Part shown: piece after piece, positions 7,048 through 13,715 of the stretch
Numbering within the stretch: the first letter of the stretch is position 1
Layout of the letters: each line of letters begins with the position of its first letter
DNA from: a virus
Lineage: Duplodnaviria; Heunggongvirae; Uroviricota; Caudoviricetes
IMG/VR virus record: IMGVR_UViG_3300029094_000007
Direction: 5' to 3' (one strand)
DNA length: 13,715 bases
Translations under genes and position numbers: made by a program
Notes under the pieces: generated by a model
What the model was told of the DNA's origin: nothing
Database searches by the model: none
What the model saw: only the letters and a program-made list of their open reading frames with translations

Positions 7048-8358
7048 TTAAATCCGAAGTGATGTGACTCTTCCGGTCGGTTTGACAATAGGGAATTGCT
7101 TAACGATGAAATAACCTCCGGCATCATTCGGGTGATCATTGCCAGATTTTTTATCAGGCTCCCCCTTATCATCCCAGACCTGTTGCTCCAGAGATTCGGC
7201 ATATACCGGACAACGCTTCACATTAACTTTATAGCGACGCTCACCATTGGCATTGCAGAACATTGCATTCATTGAGTTAACGCGATCTTTTACTGGCGGG
7301 TTCGAGCTGTTCACCACAACGTTAAAACCTGCCTGCTTAAGCTGGGCTATATCCGTCGTACTTGCGTTACTTGATTTTCTGGAATCTCCGGAAGCATCTG
7401 GATAAATATAAATCTCCCTCACTTTCCGGTAATCATTCCCGTCATACAGCCAGAAGCGTTCTTTAATGATGCGGATCATATCCGGCGTATCGTAAGCATT
7501 GATGATTTCAGTTACCGCACATGGAAGCCCCAAACGCAGCACATGGATGATTCCCGCCATCTTTCCAACGTTAAAATCCATCCCAATATAAATCGGCTCC
7601 CCTGGCTGCTCCACTTCTTCGCAATTATTCAGTTTCCGGTCAAACTGATGGTAAACAGTACCACTTGTCAGGTTAGTAAATTGCCCTCGAAGATAGGCTT
7701 TAATCAGCTCTGGAGGGTATGATTCAAGAAGCGAAGGAATGTAATCTGCTGGCAGGTTCTTTTCATTATCGAAAGTAGATGCCTGCACCAGACCATACAG
7801 TGAGGCCAGCTCTGTTTTTTCACGCACGGCTTTAACAAACTGCTCGTAGACAAATTTGAATCCTTCCGGCGTGGTTGTAACGTCAATACCGTTGCGAAGT
7901 CCATCAATCTTATAACGCATACGCGCAATTATCTTGCGCCACGCCGTTCTGGCTTTTTCCTTCGGCAAAATGTCCAGTTCATCCACCAGCGCATTACCAA
8001 TTTTGAAACCGACGATCGTTTGTGGCTTCTCCATCGATCTGCAGATAGTGGTTCCCCGATACTGGCGTCCGTAATAAAAGTGAACCTCTTTATTTCCCTC
8101 ATTAATTTTTACGTTCAATCCCCAGTCAGCAGCAACTTCTTCCACTGTAGGGTAAAAAATATCGCGAATTTGGGGATACGTTGGCGCAAAATATCCCTGA
8201 TTTATACCTGGATGCTCCCAAATCCCCTTGCATATGCCGCCACACCCAACCCATGTTTTGCCCGAGCCAAAACCAGCAATATAGGCTTTAAATTTATGGG
8301 GCATTGAAAGAAATCGCGCCTGAGGCACATTAAGCGTCGGAGAGATCATCTTCATCAC
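7048..8358 (-). CDS. Phage terminase large subunit (436 aa; start may be one of the nearby in-frame ATGs)
   Basis: Walker A-like motif GFGSGKT near the N-terminus and acidic nuclease-type segments (YIYPDASGDS, GMDFNVG) in the C-terminal half. Overlaps the 3' end of the small terminase candidate. Confidence 0.85.
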   Translation of the reverse strand: MMKMISPTLNVPQARFLSMPHKFKAYIAGFGSGKTWVGCGGICKGIWEHPGINQGYFAPTYPQIRDIFYPTVEEVAADWGLNVKINEGNKEVHFYYGRQYRGTTICRSMEKPQTIVGFKIGNALVDELDILPKEKARTAWRKIIARMRYKIDGLRNGIDVTTTPEGFKFVYEQFVKAVREKTELASLYGLVQASTFDNEKNLPADYIPSLLESYPPELIKAYLRGQFTNLTSGTVYHQFDRKLNNCEEVEQPGEPIYIGMDFNVGKMAGIIHVLRLGLPCAVTEIINAYDTPDMIRIIKERFWLYDGNDYRKVREIYIYPDASGDSRKSSNASTTDIAQLKQAGFNVVVNSSNPPVKDRVNSMNAMFCNANGERRYKVNVKRCPVYAESLEQQVWDDKGEPDKKSGNDHPNDAGGYFIVKQFPIVKPTGRVTSLRI

Positions 8359-9424
8359 TCCTTAATCTGGCATCAACCACATTAATATTGATCGCCACAG
8401 GCTGGGGATGTTCATTATCCTCCACCGTTTCGATCTCTTTGCGCAGCTTCTGGTTTTCTATTCTGCGCCGTTCAATTTCCAGTTCCTGTAGCCGCTTATC
8501 TGCACATAATGCCCCGCCAGCAGAAAGCAAACGCAACAATTCACGCCGGGCGGCAGCCTTATCCTCCAGCAGGATCTCAACACCGTATTTTCCGAGCTTT
8601 GACCCTGCATATAATTGCCGCGCATCCCCATCAAGCAGTGTGGTATCAGCCATATAAAGCTGTCCCGTTCCCTCACCGCAGCACTTCGGGCAATCCGGAT
8701 TGGGTATGGCGTTATCAACAAAGCCGAGGCCTCCATATTCCGGCTCGGGTTTACCATCTCTGGAGGCCTGTGCCGCAGCCTTATCGAATTCTGCAATATC
8801 ACGCCACTGGTAGAGATGATTCTCGCCCCAGCAATAACGGCAGTTAACACGGCGAAATTGTGCCAACTGATTGGGGTCGGCCTGGACAATGGCCATCAAC
8901 TGGCTCACCAGTAAATCCAGGTCTGCGGTATAGCGTTTCTGGTACTGATTGCGGAAGTAGCTGATAGCACGATAAACCCTGGCATTTCTAAGCATACGAC
9001 TGGCGTTGCTGTTAGCTGTCGCACCTTGCCCCTCATAACCGGCTAGTCGGTACGCCTCTGTCGGCTTTTTACCCTGAGCAACAAGCATCGCAAACTTAGC
9101 CTGCTGGTCAGAAATGCCGAATTCATCGGGACAGAACGAAAATTCCTCCGCGTCGCCCTCATTCAGGCCCGCATCGAATACTGGCTTTTTTTCCTGAGAT
9201 TTTTCGTTCCGCTTTTGTGCAGTCTGCGCAGATTTTTTCTGCGCACTTTTTTGCGCAGTTTTGCGCATTTCTGTCTGCGCATTTTTCGGAGTTTTTTTGA
9301 TGTAACGACGGGCTGTTGCGTAATTCAGTCCCCTTGCTTCACACCATGCCACCGGAGATATACCGGAGCGGGTGTATTCAGCAATATACTCCTGCTGCAA
9401 CGCCCCCCAGTCCGGTCTGCTCAT
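8330..9424 (-). CDS. Candidate terminase small subunit / DNA-recognition protein, unusually long (364 aa)
   Basis: N-terminal helix-turn-helix-like segment (ISPVAWCEARGLNYATARRYI) as in many small terminases. Followed by a low-complexity AQK-rich linker, a Cys cluster (CRYC ... CPKCC) and a C-terminal charged coiled-coil-like segment. Immediately upstream of, and overlapping, the large terminase gene. Confidence 0.55.
   Translation of the reverse strand: MSRPDWGALQQEYIAEYTRSGISPVAWCEARGLNYATARRYIKKTPKNAQTEMRKTAQKSAQKKSAQTAQKRNEKSQEKKPVFDAGLNEGDAEEFSFCPDEFGISDQQAKFAMLVAQGKKPTEAYRLAGYEGQGATANSNASRMLRNARVYRAISYFRNQYQKRYTADLDLLVSQLMAIVQADPNQLAQFRRVNCRYCWGENHLYQWRDIAEFDKAAAQASRDGKPEPEYGGLGFVDNAIPNPDCPKCCGEGTGQLYMADTTLLDGDARQLYAGSKLGKYGVEILLEDKAAARRELLRLLSAGGALCADKRLQELEIERRRIENQKLRKEIETVEDNEHPQPVAININVVDARLRSDEDDLSDA
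9225..9281. repeat. Five copies of palindromic hexamer TGCGCA, each followed by a T-run, inside the small terminase gene
   Basis: TGCGCA at 9225, 9240, 9252, 9262 and 9276 on the plus strand, each followed by a run of T. On the coding strand this encodes the reiterated AQK peptide. Confidence 0.6.
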
Positions 9425-9427
9425 CAG

Positions 9428-9679
9428 TTAGTCCTGATTTTTATCCACCCTGAGTAGTTCGCGCAGAGCAAAGGCATCCCCTTTTCTGGCAAGCTTAAAC
9501 AATGCCGCTCGTAACTCGGCTTCACCTTTCGCTCTGCCCTTACGGATGGCCGCATAAAAATCTGTCATTGCTTCCCGATTTTCTTTCAGTCGGTTCAGAT
9601 CAACATCCAGAACGTCAGCGATTTGTTGTGCAGTCATCCGGCACGCTGCCAGAGACTCGACTTTCGAATACGGAATCAT
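9428..9679 (-). CDS. Small DNA-binding-like protein (83 aa), possibly terminase-associated
   Basis: Track ORF packed 3 nt from both neighbours. Helix-rich basic sequence (MTAQQIADVLDVDLNRLKE...RKGRAKGEAELRAALFKLARKGD). Function inferred only from position and composition. Confidence 0.4.
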   Translation of the reverse strand: MIPYSKVESLAACRMTAQQIADVLDVDLNRLKENREAMTDFYAAIRKGRAKGEAELRAALFKLARKGDAFALRELLRVDKNQD

Positions 9680-9682
9680 TTG

Positions 9683-10564
9683 TCACCCCATTGATATGCA
9701 GGGTGTCTTCTTCCTGTATTTTTCGTGAAGGATTTTTACTGCAGCGTTGTTCCAGGTGACCTGATGGTGAATGCGTTTATGGCTGGCACCCATCAGTGAG
9801 ATTTTTACGCACGACGGCGCATACATGACGGAGTAAAAACTTTTAACGTAGGTTCCGGAATCCAGATACAGCTCGGTCATTCCGCCGCTGTTTTTCTGCG
9901 TCTGTTTCTGCCCTAACTGGACAGCACCGATCGTCATAAACAATTCACCACAGCGACCGAGATTCGTGTACGTATTCACATCCTCGTTAATGCGCCCCAT
10001 GAATGAGAACGGTCGATCAACCGAACAGATAAAGCTGTTCATTGCCTTGCGTTTCACCCACGAAGCATGGCCGCCATTGTCACCAAGAAAATCCCCGCCC
10101 TGCGACATAGCGATGGAAAGCGCGGGTATTGATTCGTAATACGCCAGCATTTCAGAAAGGATCGCATCCAGTTTCCTTATCGGGAAATAGGCCTGGTCAT
10201 AGTTGCGATCCACCCGAAACTGGAACTCGTGATAATCATCATCGAGCTGAATGAAGTATTTACACCCGACCAGTTTTGCCAGGTCGAAACAGGCATTACG
10301 GGCGTAAAAAATTGAGCGGCGGTCACCAAAATTATCGGCTTCGTCAAAACGACTGGCGATATCGGCTTTGGAAAATACCAGCACCTGTTCACCAAATTCA
10401 GCCATGTACTGATGCCGTGTCTTATCTTCATCATCAACAACGATAAAAATTTTCCCGGTATAGCCAGCACGACGCAACGTCCGGTAAGTCAGAACTTTTT
10501 CCGGTCGTCCGTGAGTCAGAATAAAGGCGCAAAAATCATCACGCATATTCCTCCTCCCCGCCAT
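9683..10564 (-). CDS. Hypothetical protein, possibly GT-A-fold glycosyltransferase-like (293 aa; alternative start at 10546)
   Basis: Track ORF. The second in-frame ATG at 10546 is preceded by GGGAGGAGG and overlaps the ParB-like gene stop (ATGCGTGA). Pattern FCAFILTHGRPE ... IFIVVDDED ... FIQLDDDYHEF resembles the beta1-TxNR, DD and DxD elements of GT2-type enzymes. This is motif-level inference only. Confidence 0.55.
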   Translation of the reverse strand: MAGRRNMRDDFCAFILTHGRPEKVLTYRTLRRAGYTGKIFIVVDDEDKTRHQYMAEFGEQVLVFSKADIASRFDEADNFGDRRSIFYARNACFDLAKLVGCKYFIQLDDDYHEFQFRVDRNYDQAYFPIRKLDAILSEMLAYYESIPALSIAMSQGGDFLGDNGGHASWVKRKAMNSFICSVDRPFSFMGRINEDVNTYTNLGRCGELFMTIGAVQLGQKQTQKNSGGMTELYLDSGTYVKSFYSVMYAPSCVKISLMGASHKRIHHQVTWNNAAVKILHEKYRKKTPCISMG

Positions 10565-11327
10565 GCATGATCTCCACCATGCGCTGCGTCATTCGGACAA
10601 ATCCATTTTCAATAGCCTGCTGATAATCAATGATCACCAGCGCCGACTCCTCGAAAAGGCACTGAATTTCAGCGGGGGCATGAGCGTAATAGTCCGCAAT
10701 TCTGCTGAAATTAAACACCGTGTGACGTTCTGCCGCACACAGGAGGAATTTCTCAATATCAGGATCAAGGGACGCCGAACGTATCCGGCTGATCAGCTCC
10801 TGAGTTTTCGTATCGTCGTACAGTTCACTGATATCCGGTTTACCGCCCGACGGCTCATAAACAGGCGTATCAATTTTCGTCGTATACGGCTCCTCCTTAT
10901 TTCCTATACCGGGCAAAACATCCGTCAACAGTTCATCAATTTCTGTCGGGCCGAAGCCTGTCAGGGAGACATCAAAATCAGCATTGATTAGGACCGACAG
11001 CTCCATCCGCAACAGATCTTCATCCCAGCCAGCATTCATCGGTAGGCGATTATCTGCCAAGCGGTACGCCTTTTTCTGCTCATCCGTCAGGCCAGACAGA
11101 ACAATGACCGGAACAGAATCCATTTTGAGCATTTCAGCCGCCATAACACGACCGTGACCCGCAATAATTTCGCCCTTTTCGTCAATCAGCACCGGATTAG
11201 TCCAGCCGAATTGCTTAATACTTTCTACCAGTTGTGCCACCTGCTCAGTACTGTGCGTCCTGGCGTTGTGCGCATACGGTGACAATTCTTGTAATGGGCG
11301 ATAGACTATCTTTAATTTCTCGCTCAT
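10539..11327 (-). CDS. ParB-like nuclease domain (ParB/Srx N-terminal fold) protein (262 aa)
   Basis: N-terminal region PLQELSPYAHNARTHSTEQVAQLVESIKQFGWTNPVLID...IIAGHGRVMAA matches the ParB/sulfiredoxin-type signature (the G-H-R segment). C-terminal half is acidic. AAGG precedes the ATG. Confidence 0.7.
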   Translation of the reverse strand: MSEKLKIVYRPLQELSPYAHNARTHSTEQVAQLVESIKQFGWTNPVLIDEKGEIIAGHGRVMAAEMLKMDSVPVIVLSGLTDEQKKAYRLADNRLPMNAGWDEDLLRMELSVLINADFDVSLTGFGPTEIDELLTDVLPGIGNKEEPYTTKIDTPVYEPSGGKPDISELYDDTKTQELISRIRSASLDPDIEKFLLCAAERHTVFNFSRIADYYAHAPAEIQCLFEESALVIIDYQQAIENGFVRMTQRMVEIMHGGEEEYA

Positions 11328-11343: not shown

Positions 11344-11379
11344 AATAAAACGCACCCCAGCAGCCAGTGCTACTGGGGG
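11344..11379 (-). terminator. Terminator-like hairpin downstream of trkG
   Basis: Minus-strand RNA: CCCCAGUAGC-ACUG-GCUGCUGGGG (about 10 bp including one G-U pair), then UGCGUUUUAUU. The U-run is 4 nt from the stem, so strength is uncertain. Confidence 0.4.
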
Positions 11380-11464: not shown

Positions 11465-12922
11465 TTAGGAGCGCCAAAAAAAAACTGAAAACAATATAAT
11501 AACAGGATAAATTTCAAGGCGACCAAGAATCATAGCTATGCACATTAAATATTTTGCAATGTCATTAAGCACTCCGAATGACGATGCAGTAGCCCCAAAA
11601 CCTAATCCCATATTATTAATACATGCAGCCACTGTTGCAAATGATGTAAGAAAATCATATCCCATACCATTTAACACCAGTATAAAAAACACCGTGAAGA
11701 GAGTATAAAGAAAAAAGAAACTCCATACAGACCTCATTACACGATCTGTAACTATCTTCCCTCCTACATTTACACTCAACAACGCTCTGGGATGAGAAAG
11801 CTGATTTATCTCGTGTTTGCTTTGTTTGAAAAGTATAAGAAATCGAAGTGACTTAATTCCACCACAAGTTGAACCTATACATCCCCCAAAGAAACTTGAC
11901 AACAGCAAAAACACTATCGTGTGCGTGGGCCAGTTTGCATAATCTTGCGTAGCTAAACCATTATCAGTGAGCATGGAGCTGGCAAGAAAAAACGAATGAA
12001 TAAAACTTCCATGCAAGTCATACATACCTATATGCCAGACCTGGAAAGAGGTAACAATGACCACCACTAAGGCTATTAACAGAAAGAAACGAAGTTCAAT
12101 ATCTCTGATTAAAGGTTTTATCGTTTTTCTGCTAATAACAATATACCAAAGAGTAAAGTTGAAAGCCGATAGCAGGGAAAAAGCACCAGCCACCAGCTCA
12201 ACCAAATAGTTATTAAAATATCCGATACTCTCGCTATGAGTTGAGAAACCACCAAGCGAAACTGTGGAAATCCCGTGACAAATAGCATCAAACAAAGGCA
12301 TTCCTGCAAGTCTATAACAGACAATACAAGCAATACCTAATAAAGAATAAGTTATCCACAGTGTCCGTGACGTATCGGCCAGGCGGGGAGTGAGTTTGTC
12401 ATCCTTAAATGGCCCCGGCATTTCTGACTGATAAAGCTTTGCACCACCAATACCCAATAATGGCAATACTGCAACCGCCAGAACAATAACTCCTAAACCA
12501 CCTATAAAATTTAACTGTGACCGATAGTACAAATATGCCCGAGGTAATGAACTAACATCATCAATTACAGTTGCTCCTGTTGTTGTTATTCCAGAAACCC
12601 CTTCAAACAGAGCATCAATGAACGTTAAATTAAGTTCTGAGTCAATCCATAAAGGGAATGCACTAATAACAGAAAACAAAATCCAAAACATTACAATTAT
12701 AATAAACCCATCACGGGTACGTAATTGAATGCCAGATTTCTTAGTTGTATACCACGCTCCGCCACCAATGCAAAAAAATATAACGAAAGTTATAAAGAAA
12801 ACGAACAGGCTTTTTTCTTTATAAAACAATGCTACAACCATTGGTGGCAACATTGAAAGACTATAGAGCCAAACCAGGAACCCACACATATGAGTAACAA
12901 CTCTTACATGAGATGTATTCAT
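11465..12922 (-). CDS. trkG: Trk-system potassium uptake protein TrkG (485 aa)
   Basis: The translation (MNTSHVRVVTHMCGFLVWLYS ... ILFSVFFWRS) matches my recollection of E. coli TrkG essentially throughout. Multi-pass membrane protein. The track ORF begins at a TTG six codons upstream; the ATG at 12922 gives the expected length. The gene is visibly more AT-rich than its neighbours. Confidence 0.9.
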   Translation of the reverse strand: MNTSHVRVVTHMCGFLVWLYSLSMLPPMVVALFYKEKSLFVFFITFVIFFCIGGGAWYTTKKSGIQLRTRDGFIIIVMFWILFSVISAFPLWIDSELNLTFIDALFEGVSGITTTGATVIDDVSSLPRAYLYYRSQLNFIGGLGVIVLAVAVLPLLGIGGAKLYQSEMPGPFKDDKLTPRLADTSRTLWITYSLLGIACIVCYRLAGMPLFDAICHGISTVSLGGFSTHSESIGYFNNYLVELVAGAFSLLSAFNFTLWYIVISRKTIKPLIRDIELRFFLLIALVVVIVTSFQVWHIGMYDLHGSFIHSFFLASSMLTDNGLATQDYANWPTHTIVFLLLSSFFGGCIGSTCGGIKSLRFLILFKQSKHEINQLSHPRALLSVNVGGKIVTDRVMRSVWSFFFLYTLFTVFFILVLNGMGYDFLTSFATVAACINNMGLGFGATASSFGVLNDIAKYLMCIAMILGRLEIYPVIILFSVFFWRS

Positions 12923-12939
12923 ATCTAAATATTCTTTCA

Positions 12940-12973
12940 ATTATAACCACCTTGCTGCAATATTATGATTATA
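12940..12973 (-). promoter_or_regulatory. AT-rich putative trkG promoter region with two TATAAT hexamers
   Basis: On the minus strand, exact TATAAT hexamers lie at 12940-12945 and 12968-12973, just upstream of the trkG ATG. No convincing -35 element found, so this is tentative. Confidence 0.3.
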
Positions 12974-13059: not shown

Positions 13060-13521
13060 TTACTTTAAACACTGTTCGGTTATGTATTGCTGAGCACCTT
13101 CAAGTTGGGCCTGCATCATTACCAGTCGTTCCCGGAGGGTGAAATAATCCCGTTCAGCGGTGTCTGCCAGTCTGGGGGAGACTGCATTATCCACGCTGGA
13201 GGTGGCGGTGGCTTCACGCACTGACTGACAGACTGCTTTGATGCGCAACCGACGACGACCAGCGGCAACATCATCACGCAGAGCATCATTTTCAGCTTTC
13301 GCATCAGCTAACTCCTTCAGGTATTTTGCATCGAGTGCAGCAACATCACGCTGGCGTATCTGCATGTCAGTAATGATTGCGGTCGCCTGGTTGAGTTTTT
13401 CCGTCACATTATCGCGTTGCGCTTTGTAGGTAATGGCATTATCACGGTAATGATTAACAGCCCATGACAGGCAGACGATGATGCAGATAACCAGAGCATA
13501 AATAATCACGGCAACTCTGCT

Positions 13522-13524
<3 letters not shown>
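13060..13524 (-). CDS. Rz: Spanin inner-membrane subunit Rz (i-spanin), 154 aa from GTG at 13524
   Basis: Translation is near-identical to lambda-family Rz as I recall it (...[27 protein letters not shown]...[31 protein letters not shown]...[19 protein letters not shown]...). The track starts at a TTG at 13539; the GTG at 13524 corresponds to the lambda MSRV start and follows GGGGGA. Confidence 0.9.
13119..13304 (-). CDS. Rz1: Spanin outer-membrane lipoprotein subunit Rz1 (o-spanin), 61 aa, embedded in Rz in another frame
   Basis: [20 protein letters not shown]... carries a lipobox (VVGC) and a proline-rich segment (PPPPPAW), matching lambda Rz1 closely. Lies entirely inside Rz in a different frame. 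Confidence 0.9.

Positions 13525-13715
<191 letters not shown>

What the first reader, a model, noticed from the sequence alone, without database searches (positions are those of the whole stretch)
9683..11327. Coupled ParB-like nuclease-domain protein and GT-A-like protein in the moron slot between lysis genes and terminase
Two overlapping co-oriented genes sit between trkG and the packaging genes. The first has a clear ParB/Srx-type N-terminal domain. The second shows a GT2-like motif succession (strand-TxGRPE, IVVDDED, QLDDDY), suggesting a nucleotide-sugar transferase fold. A DNA-targeting ParB-like module paired with a sugar transferase, next to the packaging machinery, would fit a phage DNA-modification or anti-restriction function, or a packaging accessory nuclease. 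I do not recognise this pair as a characterised system.
Basis: partly seen in the sequence, partly recalled or inferred. Interest (0 to 1): 0.65.

Follow-up and report, generated by a model that had tools for sequence, protein, structure and literature searches.

The report
ParB-partnered phage DNA sugar transferase
An E. coli Rac-type prophage carries, just before its DNA-packaging genes, a sugar-transferring enzyme of a DNA-glycosylating family, coupled to a ParB-like partner protein. The pair recurs in phages of bacteria and archaea that have no known way to make the usual sugar-acceptor base, so what it modifies is an open, testable question.

Summary
Two translationally coupled minus-strand genes lie between trkG and the terminase genes. 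One is a 262-aa ParB/Srx-type protein, the intact form of K-12 ynaK. The other is a 287-aa protein (293 aa by the longest ORF) of Pfam family TAGT, the TET-associated glycosyltransferases, with a GT-A fold.

The pairing is essentially obligate. In 45 of 45 taxonomically diverse genomic loci with upstream DNA, and in 6 phage genomes including an archaeal virus, this TAGT clade sits next to the same partner.

The invariant partner is not the ParB N-domain. It is the unannotated, acidic, roughly 120-aa C-terminal domain (CTD) of the 262-aa protein. The CTD also occurs as a stand-alone ~130-aa protein and has no Pfam, PDB or fold relative.

The module usually lies directly upstream of terminase genes of several unrelated families, or among replication genes. 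No TET/5mYOX or hydroxymethylase was found in Rac, c5 or phi jlb1.

Best reading (about 0.5): a late-expressed, two-subunit DNA glycosyltransferase that marks phage DNA before packaging. The acceptor is unknown.

trkG is the moron, not this pair, and a nuclease role is unsupported. No experimental characterisation was found. I rate it a new variant of a known kind, of moderate to high interest.

The parts
10539..11327 (-). 262-aa ParB-like protein, the full-length form of the gene that survives in K-12 as the 87-aa remnant ynaK
   Evidence: ORF. PF02195 ParB_N 8.8e-7 and phrog_620 2.6e-88. RefSeq names it 'ynaK: ParB/Srx family N-terminal domain-containing protein'. K-12 remnant shown.
10908..11327 (-). 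ParB/Srx N-terminal (NTP-binding-type) domain, aa 1-140. It carries N21-A-R23, G57-H-G-R60 (P-motif) and D92-N93.
   Evidence: Pfam. Motif conservation. The same subtype is fused to DNA methyltransferases: phrog_498 3.6e-50 and PADLOC MTase_II 7.7e-38.
10542..10907 (-). Unannotated acidic C-terminal domain (CTD), aa 141-262, the invariant partner of this TAGT clade. Motif: Y-[TS]-x-K-I-x-x-P-x-Y-E-P ... FL..AA.RH.VFN[YF]..IA[DE]YYAHA....Q.L.E.SALVIID...AI.NG[YF]V
9683..10546 (-). 287-aa TAGT-family GT-A glycosyltransferase (the longest ORF would start at 10564). In 293-aa numbering: R20, D44-D47, D108-D109-D110-Y111, E194-D195. It has a basic, family-specific C-terminal extension (aa ~222-293).
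   Evidence: PF20691 4e-35 and phrog_842 1.7e-102. Alignments. AF2 model. Foldseek PDB hits are mostly GT-A enzymes. Charge.
10539..10559 (-). Gene junction: Shine-Dalgarno-like GGGGAGGAGG (10550-10559), the TAGT ATG at 10546-10544, and the 8-nt overlap ATGCGTGA with the ParB stop. This implies translational coupling.
   Evidence: Sequence read.
11355..11378 (-). Terminator-like hairpin between trkG and the ParB-like gene. It marks the end of the trkG insert, upstream of the pair.
   Evidence: GC contrast.

Best explanation
The two genes encode a two-subunit DNA glycosyltransferase module of a Rac-type lambdoid prophage.

Catalytic subunit: the 287-aa protein is a GT-A enzyme of the TAGT / base-J glucosyltransferase / GREB1 family. 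It uses a nucleotide sugar through its R...DDD...ED site.

Partner subunit: the 262-aa protein is its cognate partner. Its acidic C-terminal domain binds the transferase, probably through the transferase's basic C-terminal extension, with 1:1 stoichiometry enforced by translational coupling. Its ParB-type N-domain is an NTP-switch module, the same subtype that phages fuse to DNA methyltransferases. That domain would couple the enzyme to double-stranded DNA or gate its activity, as ParB-like activators do for a subclass of phage thymine dioxygenases.

Timing and role: the pair is transcribed with the late genes just ahead of terminase. It would decorate replicated phage DNA with sugar before packaging, so that the injected genome is protected from host nucleases.

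Status of each step:
- Shown: family membership, fold, the obligate pairing with the CTD, the genomic position, and the absence of a recognisable hydroxylase.
- Inferred: DNA as substrate, physical complex formation, the role of the ParB domain, and the protective function.
- Unknown: the acceptor atom and the sugar.
For: 1. TAGT membership and GT-A fold. Family motifs R...DDD...ED are conserved. The same motifs are described for DNA-acting phage GT-A enzymes and JGT in bioRxiv 10.1101/2023.12.21.572611.

2. Characterised TAGT members glycosylate DNA: the T2/T6 second-glucose transferase (PMC13216743) and 5hmC glycosyltransferases.

3. A CTD homologue lies directly upstream of this TAGT clade in 45 of 45 diverse loci and in 6 phage genomes, including archaeal HHTV-2 and a Porphyromonas phage whose TAGT is 27% identical. 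It is absent next to the distant T4-like Ah1 TAGT. L044 has two tandem CTD-TAGT modules. Identity matrices of the two proteins correlate (r = 0.64, 0 of 2000 permutations reach it).

4. Charges are complementary: CTD net -6 to -23, TAGT C-terminal 72 aa mostly +4 to +10. Both regions are conserved yet modelled with low confidence on their own.

5. Context is DNA metabolism or packaging. Downstream genes include TerL of at least 4 families, and some loci carry the Pol III beta clamp, PolA, primase-helicase, SSB or VRR-NUC. Nucleotide-sugar enzymes are adjacent in some loci.

6. The ParB_N subtype equals that of ParB-methyltransferase fusions.

7. There is precedent for ParB-like activators of DNA-modifying enzymes acting on dsDNA (PMC13229309).

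8. The pair is intact in at least 867 of 5426 complete E. coli genomes.
Against: - All characterised TAGT/JGT enzymes glycosylate a hydroxyl group (5hmC, 5hmU or a sugar). No hydroxymethyl-base pathway was found in Rac, c5 or phi jlb1, so the acceptor in canonical DNA is unexplained.
- The eukaryotic family member GREB1 glycosylates a protein (PMC7968844, abstract).
- No DNA-binding domain is recognisable in either protein, and the CTD is acidic.
- The ParB P-motif arginine is lost in about 15% of partners, and some partners lack ParB_N altogether. The ParB domain is therefore not essential to the core function.
- No experiment on this pair was found in the literature.
Confidence: 0.5

Rival explanations
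1. Protein glycosylation. The transferase glycosylates a protein rather than DNA. Candidates are the conserved Tyr/Thr-rich disordered arm of its own partner (Y-[TS]-x-K-I-x-x-P-x-Y-E-P), in a glycogenin-like priming reaction, or a terminase or virion protein.
For: - GREB1, a family member, O-GlcNAcylates ER-alpha (PMC7968844).
- The top Foldseek hit is glycogenin, and the S-glycosyltransferases ThuS/SunS that act on peptides also rank high.
- The invariant Y8 and Y17 lie in a low-pLDDT arm of the CTD.
- No hydroxylated DNA base is available in these phages.
- The module is adjacent to packaging and structural genes.
Against: - In lytic or large phages the module sits among replication genes (PolA, clamp, primase-helicase, SSB), not structural genes.
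- The ParB_N subtype is otherwise fused to DNA methyltransferases.
- Most characterised relatives act on DNA.
- Foldseek similarity to glycogenin only reflects the shared GT-A fold (E about 3e-4).
Confidence: 0.17
2. Classical O-glycosylation of a hydroxymethyl base that is supplied from elsewhere. The source would be an unrecognised phage hydroxylase, a co-resident element or a host enzyme. In Rac the pair would then be idle or conditional.
For: - This is the family's known chemistry.
- Some TAGT-containing contigs in the literature do carry 5mYOX or ThyS.
- Several Rac, c5 and HHTV-2 proteins remain unannotated.
Against: - No TET_JBP or 2OG-oxygenase hit was found among the unknown Rac and c5 proteins scanned.
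- Phi jlb1 has no unassigned ORF large enough in its early region or in the gap before the pair.
- TET_JBP is not among the recurrent neighbour families in 45 loci.
- The pair and all its invariant residues are maintained across very different hosts, from E. coli to Haloarcula.
Confidence: 0.12
3. Packaging or partition accessory. The ParB-like protein would act as a nuclease, a pac-site binder or a partition protein, and the transferase would be functionally unrelated.
For: - The position immediately upstream of terminase genes recurs in many phages.
- The Pfam family was historically named 'ParB-like nuclease'.
- Iyer et al. 2013 proposed that ParB directs modification machinery during packaging (cited in PMC8256090).
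Against: - The protein does not reach the ParB partition-protein model cutoff (TIGR00180: 38 bits against 58).
- No HTH or ParA partner is present, and no parS-like repeats were found.
- Stand-alone CTD partners without a ParB domain are common.
- The module also occurs away from terminase, among replication genes.
- The coupling to TAGT is universal, so the two genes are not independent.
Confidence: 0.07
4. Lysogen-expressed defence or exclusion function. The pair would glycosylate or mark incoming foreign DNA, or host targets, to the benefit of the lysogen.
For: It lies next to the moron trkG in a prophage, and ParB_N-like domains occur in defence proteins such as GmrSD and DndB.
Against: - The transferase and the small ORF have no PADLOC match, and the ParB hit is only to a methyltransferase N-domain.
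- There is no convincing own promoter, and a terminator-like hairpin lies upstream.
- GC content matches the late genes.
- The same module occurs in strictly lytic large phages.
Confidence: 0.05

Closest known systems
T2/T6 beta-glucosyl-HMC-alpha-glucosyltransferase (TAGT, PF20691), and the TET/5mYOX-associated GT-A DNA glycosyltransferases of phages
   Same: Same Pfam family, same GT-A fold, and the same R...DDD...ED catalytic motifs. Both are phage-encoded and act after replication.
   Different: Those enzymes act on 5hmC or on glucosyl-5hmC, made by a hydroxymethylase or by a methyltransferase plus TET. Here no such pathway is present. This clade also has a basic C-terminal extension and an obligate CTD partner, which the T4-like Ah1 homologue lacks. 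PMC13216743 lists 288 of 753 phages with 'solitary' TAGT of undefined function.
ParB-dependent phage thymine dioxygenases (5mYOX176/ParB176; PMC13229309)
   Same: In both, a ParB-like protein with an N-terminal NTP-binding-type domain and a C-terminal domain, but no recognisable DNA-binding domain, is encoded beside a post-replicative DNA-modifying enzyme. In both, the conserved NTP-motif residues are not strictly required or not strictly conserved.
   Different: There the enzyme is a dioxygenase and here it is a glycosyltransferase. Whether the two C-terminal domains are homologous was not tested. Dependence of this transferase on its partner has not been shown.
ParB_N-DNA methyltransferase fusions of phages and prophages (phrog_498; PADLOC MTase_II; PMC12704722)
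   Same: The ParB N-domain is of the same subtype (3.6e-50 and 7.7e-38). They share prophage enrichment and, from my own knowledge, frequent proximity to packaging genes.
   Different: In the fusions the catalytic module is a fused SAM-dependent methyltransferase. Here it is a separate glycosyltransferase recruited through a dedicated CTD.
Trypanosomatid base-J glucosyltransferase (JGT) and vertebrate GREB1
   Same: They belong to the same superfamily. RefSeq names this protein 'GREB1-related protein', and phage GT-A models match JGT.
   Different: JGT needs JBP-made 5hmU, and GREB1 glycosylates a protein. Neither has a ParB/CTD partner.

Membership tests
TAGT (PF20691, TET-associated glycosyltransferase) | Profile match above the curated cutoff | tested here: met
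   122.1 bits against a cutoff of 27.5, E = 4e-35, residues 14-228. phrog_842 gives 1.7e-102.
TAGT (PF20691, TET-associated glycosyltransferase) | GT-A fold with the R...DDD...ED(Y/F) active-site motifs | tested here: met
   The top Foldseek PDB hits of the AF2 model are mostly GT-A enzymes, with probability 0.97-1.0. R20, D108-D110 and E194-D195 are invariant in homologues. The motif definition comes from bioRxiv 10.1101/2023.12.21.572611.
TAGT (PF20691, TET-associated glycosyltransferase) | Genomic association with a TET/JBP (5mYOX) dioxygenase or a 5hm-pyrimidine pathway | tested here: not met
   None is annotated in the Rac prophage or in the complete phages c5 and phi jlb1. The unknown proteins scanned gave no hit. 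TET_JBP is not among the recurrent neighbours in 45 loci.
TAGT (PF20691, TET-associated glycosyltransferase) | Transfer of a sugar from a nucleotide sugar to DNA | not testable with these tools
   This needs biochemistry or nucleoside mass spectrometry.
T-even beta-glucosyl-HMC-alpha-glucosyltransferase (the name PHROG gives to this protein's family) | Co-occurrence with alpha-GT or beta-GT and a dCMP hydroxymethylase, with glucosyl-5hmC as the acceptor | tested here: not met
   No such genes occur in the prophage or in the small phages. The PHROG label is an annotation transfer only.
ParB/Srx superfamily (PF02195 ParB_N) | Profile match above cutoff and a conserved GxxR P-motif | tested here: met
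   29.3 bits against a cutoff of 26.3. G57-H-G-R60, N21/R23 and D92-N93 are present.
Canonical partition ParB (TIGR00180 ParB/RepB/Spo0J) | Full-length match including the HTH DNA-binding domain, plus a ParA partner and a parS site | tested here: not met
   38.2 bits against a cutoff of 58.45, and only the N-domain aligns. No ParA is encoded in the prophage. No parS-like repeats were found.
ParB-activated DNA-modifying enzyme systems (as in PMC13229309) | A ParB-like protein without a DNA-binding domain, encoded beside a post-replicative DNA-modifying enzyme and required for its activity on dsDNA | tested here: inconclusive
   Adjacency and domain layout fit. The enzyme class differs, and the requirement cannot be tested computationally.
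   SpsA (GT2) is among the Foldseek hits, at 10-11% identity. No Pfam Glycos_transf_2 hit was found. PMC13216743 places TAGT as a sister group to GT2.

The most novel reading that the evidence does not exclude
The CTD-TAGT complex glycosylates canonical DNA directly, without any hydroxymethyl-pyrimidine precursor. The acceptor could be an exocyclic amine or another nucleophile of an ordinary base, or a DNA terminus. This would define a new class of DNA modification that is widespread in temperate phages of bacteria and archaea. The previously unannotated ~120-aa CTD would be the specificity or activation subunit, and the ParB N-domain an optional NTP-gated DNA clamp.
Probability: 0.25. Interest if true: 0.85.

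Novelty: new variant of a known kind. Interest (0 to 1): 0.6.

Why it matters
Phage DNA glycosylation is known only as a second step, after a hydroxymethyl or hydroxy base has been made. This module is very common: at least 867 complete E. coli genomes carry it, more than 7,800 TAGT clusters were found, and about 1,400 CTD clusters at 50% identity. It occurs in small temperate phages that have no such first step.

Either outcome would be informative. If the module modifies DNA, it implies a new acceptor chemistry and a new anti-restriction mark, possibly relevant to type IV restriction, to sequencing artefacts and to phage therapy. If it does not, a DNA-glycosyltransferase family has been recruited for something else.

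The work also extends the recent finding that ParB-like proteins serve as partners of DNA-modifying enzymes, and it identifies a conserved partner domain that no database describes.

The system sits in an E. coli prophage. K-12 lacks both an intact partner gene and the transferase, so it is an ideal clean background for testing.

Tried and rejected
- The viral-contig scan returned only ~99% identical E. coli prophages, so it was useless for diversity. The genome-contig loci were used instead.
- Iyer et al. 2013 (PMC3763556), the paper that defined TAGT, is not held. Its view is known only through citations.
- Literature searches for TAGT+ParB, PF20691, GREB1+phage and glucosyl-HMC+ParB found no characterisation of the pair.
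- PDB sequence searches found nothing for the CTD or for TAGT.
- Pfam at E up to 10 on 25 diverse CTDs gave only a weak recurrent hit to PF23887 (6 of 25, E about 0.03), which I do not regard as meaningful.
- PADLOC gave no defence-system match for the transferase.
- Repeat and promoter scans showed nothing above chance near the pair.
- I considered whether the CTD could be a cryptic hydroxylase, given its many invariant His, Tyr, Glu and Asp residues. There is no supporting homology or fold evidence, so this is not proposed.
- I rejected the 'moron' reading for the pair on composition and synteny.
Full report
**What is there**

The window is the late region of a Rac-type lambdoid prophage of E. 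coli. The 2-kb region is 100% identical to strains TUM9803 and CH4796. It is present in 1600 of 5426 complete E. coli genomes and at least 80% covered in 867.

All genes of interest are on the minus strand. In order they are:
- Rz lysis protein (13060-13539)
- trkG (11465-12940; TrkH, 1.5e-143)
- a 262-aa ParB-like protein (10539-11327)
- a TAGT-family protein (9683-10546 or 10564)
- an 83-aa ORF (9428-9679)
- TerS (8330-9424)
- TerL (7048-8358)
- portal and head genes

The transferase most likely starts at the ATG at 10546. This start follows GGAGGAGG and overlaps the upstream stop codon by 8 nt (ATGCGTGA). It matches the RefSeq 287-aa model and homologue N-termini. Such an overlap implies translational coupling.

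In K-12 the Rac prophage retains only an 87-aa ynaK fragment fused to distal genes. The window therefore shows the intact ancestral arrangement.

**Identity of the parts**

The 262-aa protein has a ParB/Srx N-domain in aa 1-140 (PF02195, above cutoff). The P-motif G57-H-G-R60 is present. This N-domain is of the subtype that phages fuse to DNA methyltransferases (phrog_498 3.6e-50; PADLOC MTase_II 7.7e-38). The protein is not a partition ParB. It falls below the TIGR00180 cutoff, has no HTH, has no ParA neighbour, and no parS-like repeats were found.

The second protein belongs to Pfam TAGT, the TET-associated glycosyltransferases (4e-35). RefSeq calls it 'GREB1-related'.
- Its AF2 model has a confident Rossmann-like N-terminal half.
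- Its best PDB matches are mostly GT-A enzymes, including glycogenin, SpsA, LARGE1, ColGalT1 and ThuS/SunS, with probability 0.97-1.0.
- The R...DDD...ED motifs described for DNA-acting phage GT-A enzymes and JGT are invariant in it.

**The key comparative result**

I scanned one genome per species with a TAGT alignment. This returned 47 loci from Enterobacteria, Bacteroidales, Clostridia, Veillonella, Saccharibacteria, Planctomycetota, Acidimicrobiia, Kiritimatiellae and others.

In all 45 loci that include upstream DNA, a homologue of the C-terminal 120 residues (CTD) of the window's ParB-like protein lies upstream of the transferase on the same strand. In 43 of them it abuts or overlaps the transferase directly. 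In two (L039, L048) a second TAGT paralogue sits in between.

Phage genomes show the same pairing:
- Lactobacillus phages phi jlb1 and c5
- Nocardia phage NTR1
- the archaeal virus HHTV-2
- a 191-kb Vibrio phage
- a Porphyromonas phage whose TAGT is only 27% identical

The pairing is absent next to the more distant TAGT of the T4-like Aeromonas phage Ah1.

The ParB N-domain is usually present but is dispensable to the pairing.
- Several loci encode a stand-alone ~133-aa CTD protein.
- A profile search found 4767 CTD proteins, and the top hits are mostly stand-alone ~130-aa proteins with no Pfam domain.
- In a 50%-clustered library the family has 1409 clusters. Of the best 150, 112 are ParB_N+CTD and 38 lack a detectable ParB_N. 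The CTD lies at or near the C-terminus in nearly all.
- The P-motif arginine is kept in 86 of 112 and lost in about 15%.
- L044 carries two tandem CTD-TAGT modules.
- Pairwise identities of CTD and TAGT correlate (r = 0.64, 0 of 2000 permutations reach it). This shows the two proteins are inherited together as a module.

**What the CTD is**

AF2 gives a confident four-helix core (pLDDT above 90). The conserved N-terminal arm (Y-[TS]-x-K-I-x-x-P-x-Y-E-P), the conserved SALVIID strand and the terminal helix are all modelled with low confidence.

The CTD is strongly acidic, with net charge -6 to -23 in 23 of 25 members. The transferase's family-specific C-terminal ~70 residues are highly conserved, basic (mostly +4 to +10) and also poorly modelled. 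I infer, but have not shown, that these regions fold against each other in a complex, and that the CTD is not itself a DNA-binding domain.

**Genomic context**

The genes downstream of the pair are terminase large subunits of at least four unrelated families (Terminase_6N 15, Terminase_3 7, GpA 3-4, TerL_ATPase 2), plus portals and TerS. In c5 the pair is the first thing after cos. In phi jlb1, the Porphyromonas phage and NTR1 it directly precedes terminase.

In other loci the pair is embedded among PolA, the Pol III beta clamp, primase-helicase, SSB, 5'-3' exonuclease, VRR-NUC or an SNF2 helicase. Sometimes nucleotide-sugar enzymes are nearby (UDP-glucose dehydrogenase, epimerase, NTP_transferase, RmlD) or a second TAGT, once fused to a methyltransferase-like domain.

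This context points to DNA metabolism and a nucleotide-sugar donor. In the window, trkG is the compositional outlier (GC 0.35-0.40) and is followed by a terminator-like hairpin. The pair (GC 0.485) matches the late genes. The 'moron slot' description therefore applies to trkG and not to the pair.

**The missing acceptor**

Characterised relatives glycosylate hydroxyl groups: the T2/T6 enzyme on glucosyl-5hmC, 5mYOX-associated enzymes on 5hmC, JGT on 5hmU, and GREB1 on Ser/Thr of a protein.

I found no 5mYOX/TET, hydroxymethylase or DNA methyltransferase in:
- the Rac prophage
- its unknown proteins
- phage c5
- phi jlb1, where no unassigned ORF is large enough

TET_JBP is not a recurrent neighbour either. 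So either the module glycosylates canonical DNA by new chemistry, or the acceptor is not DNA, or a precursor comes from elsewhere.

**Literature**

- PMC13216743 notes 288 of 753 phages with 'solitary' TAGT of undefined function.
- bioRxiv 10.1101/2023.12.21.572611 lists ParB-like proteins among GT-A neighbours.
- PMC13229309 shows that ParB-like proteins lacking a DNA-binding domain are obligate activators of a thymine-dioxygenase subclass on dsDNA.
- PMC12704722 surveys orphan ParB folds and does not mention glycosyltransferases.
- Iyer et al. 2013 proposed that ParB directs modification machinery during packaging. I could see this only as cited in PMC8256090 and PMC13229309, because the paper itself is not held.
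- No paper in the library characterises this pair.

**Verdict**

My best explanation, at about 0.5, is a late-expressed, two-subunit DNA glycosyltransferase. The unannotated CTD is the cognate partner, and the ParB N-domain is an accessory NTP-switch or DNA-coupling module.

The rivals are protein glycosylation (0.17), dependence on an external hydroxymethyl base (0.12), a packaging or partition accessory (0.07) and lysogen defence (0.05).

It is a new variant of a known kind. The families are known. The precursor-independent context and the obligate partner domain that no searched database describes are not characterised in any paper I could find. It is directly testable in E. coli K-12.

Noticed in passing
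window 11465-12940 (-), hairpin 11355-11378 (-): trkG is a low-GC insert (0.35-0.40 against about 0.48 in its neighbours). It lies between the lysis genes and the ParB-like gene and is followed by a 10-bp-stem terminator-like hairpin. This is the classic signature of a moron.
   Followed up: partly
window 9428-9679 (-): An 83-aa ORF lies between the transferase and TerS. It matches the middle of a terminase-small-subunit PHROG (phrog_309, 8.3e-23) but no Pfam family. ORFs of 79-85 aa sit at the same position in the Pantoea, Superficieibacter and Serratia loci (L004, L005, L046). It may be a separate DNA-recognition piece of a bipartite TerS, or a third member of the module in enterobacteria.
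   Followed up: partly
window 8330-9424 (-): TerS is unusually long at 364 aa. The Terminase_2 match covers only aa 122-316. There is a weak N-terminal hit to an IS66 TnpA-like HTH model (2.3e-4), and the tail is acidic and coiled-coil-like.
   Followed up: no
L136 (E. coli K-12 MG1655, 1425377-1425980): K-12 ynaK is an 87-aa N-terminal remnant of this ParB-like gene, and a deletion removes the transferase through the head genes. A 2026 screen (PMC12924614) reports that overexpressing this remnant raises MICs of six antibiotics. No mechanism is known.
   Followed up: partly
L044:2-3267; L021:2970-5117; L039:2614-6161; L048:6451-8891: Some loci carry two TAGT paralogues. L044 has two tandem CTD-TAGT modules. 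L039 has a 564-aa TAGT fused to a methyltransferase-like domain, lying between the ParB-CTD gene and the second TAGT. This suggests di-glycosyl or methylated-sugar products.
   Followed up: partly
L047:8853-12012 and the upstream neighbours of other loci: Nucleotide-sugar enzymes flank the module in a few loci: UDP-glucose dehydrogenase, NAD-dependent epimerase/dehydratase, sugar-phosphate nucleotidyltransferase and an RmlD-like protein. This hints that the donor sugar differs between phages.
   Followed up: no
window 9683-9880 (-), i.e. TAGT aa ~222-287; and window 10542-10907 (-): The transferase's C-terminal ~70 residues are among its most conserved (GGMTELY..GTY.K.FYS, H.R.HH..W) and are basic, yet AF2 models them at pLDDT below 50. 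The partner CTD is acidic, and its conserved arm and strand are also poorly modelled. This pattern is suggestive of mutual folding.
   Followed up: partly
P0081 (381 aa, single 8.5-kb metagenomic contig): This is one apparent fusion of a partial CTD (aa 2-70) with a full TAGT (aa 80-361). It could be a natural fusion or a frameshift or assembly artefact.
   Followed up: no
L002:7126-8032 (Shigella flexneri): The ParB-like gene is split into two ORFs (129 and 168 aa) while the transferase remains intact. The partner is probably pseudogenised in this lineage.
   Followed up: no
CTD residues 61-80 (window 10668-10727, -): There is a weak but recurrent Pfam hit to PF23887 (phage L5 gene 47-like protein), in 6 of 25 diverse CTDs at E about 0.03, over the RH.VFN[YF]..IADYYAH motif. 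It is below any significance threshold.
   Followed up: no
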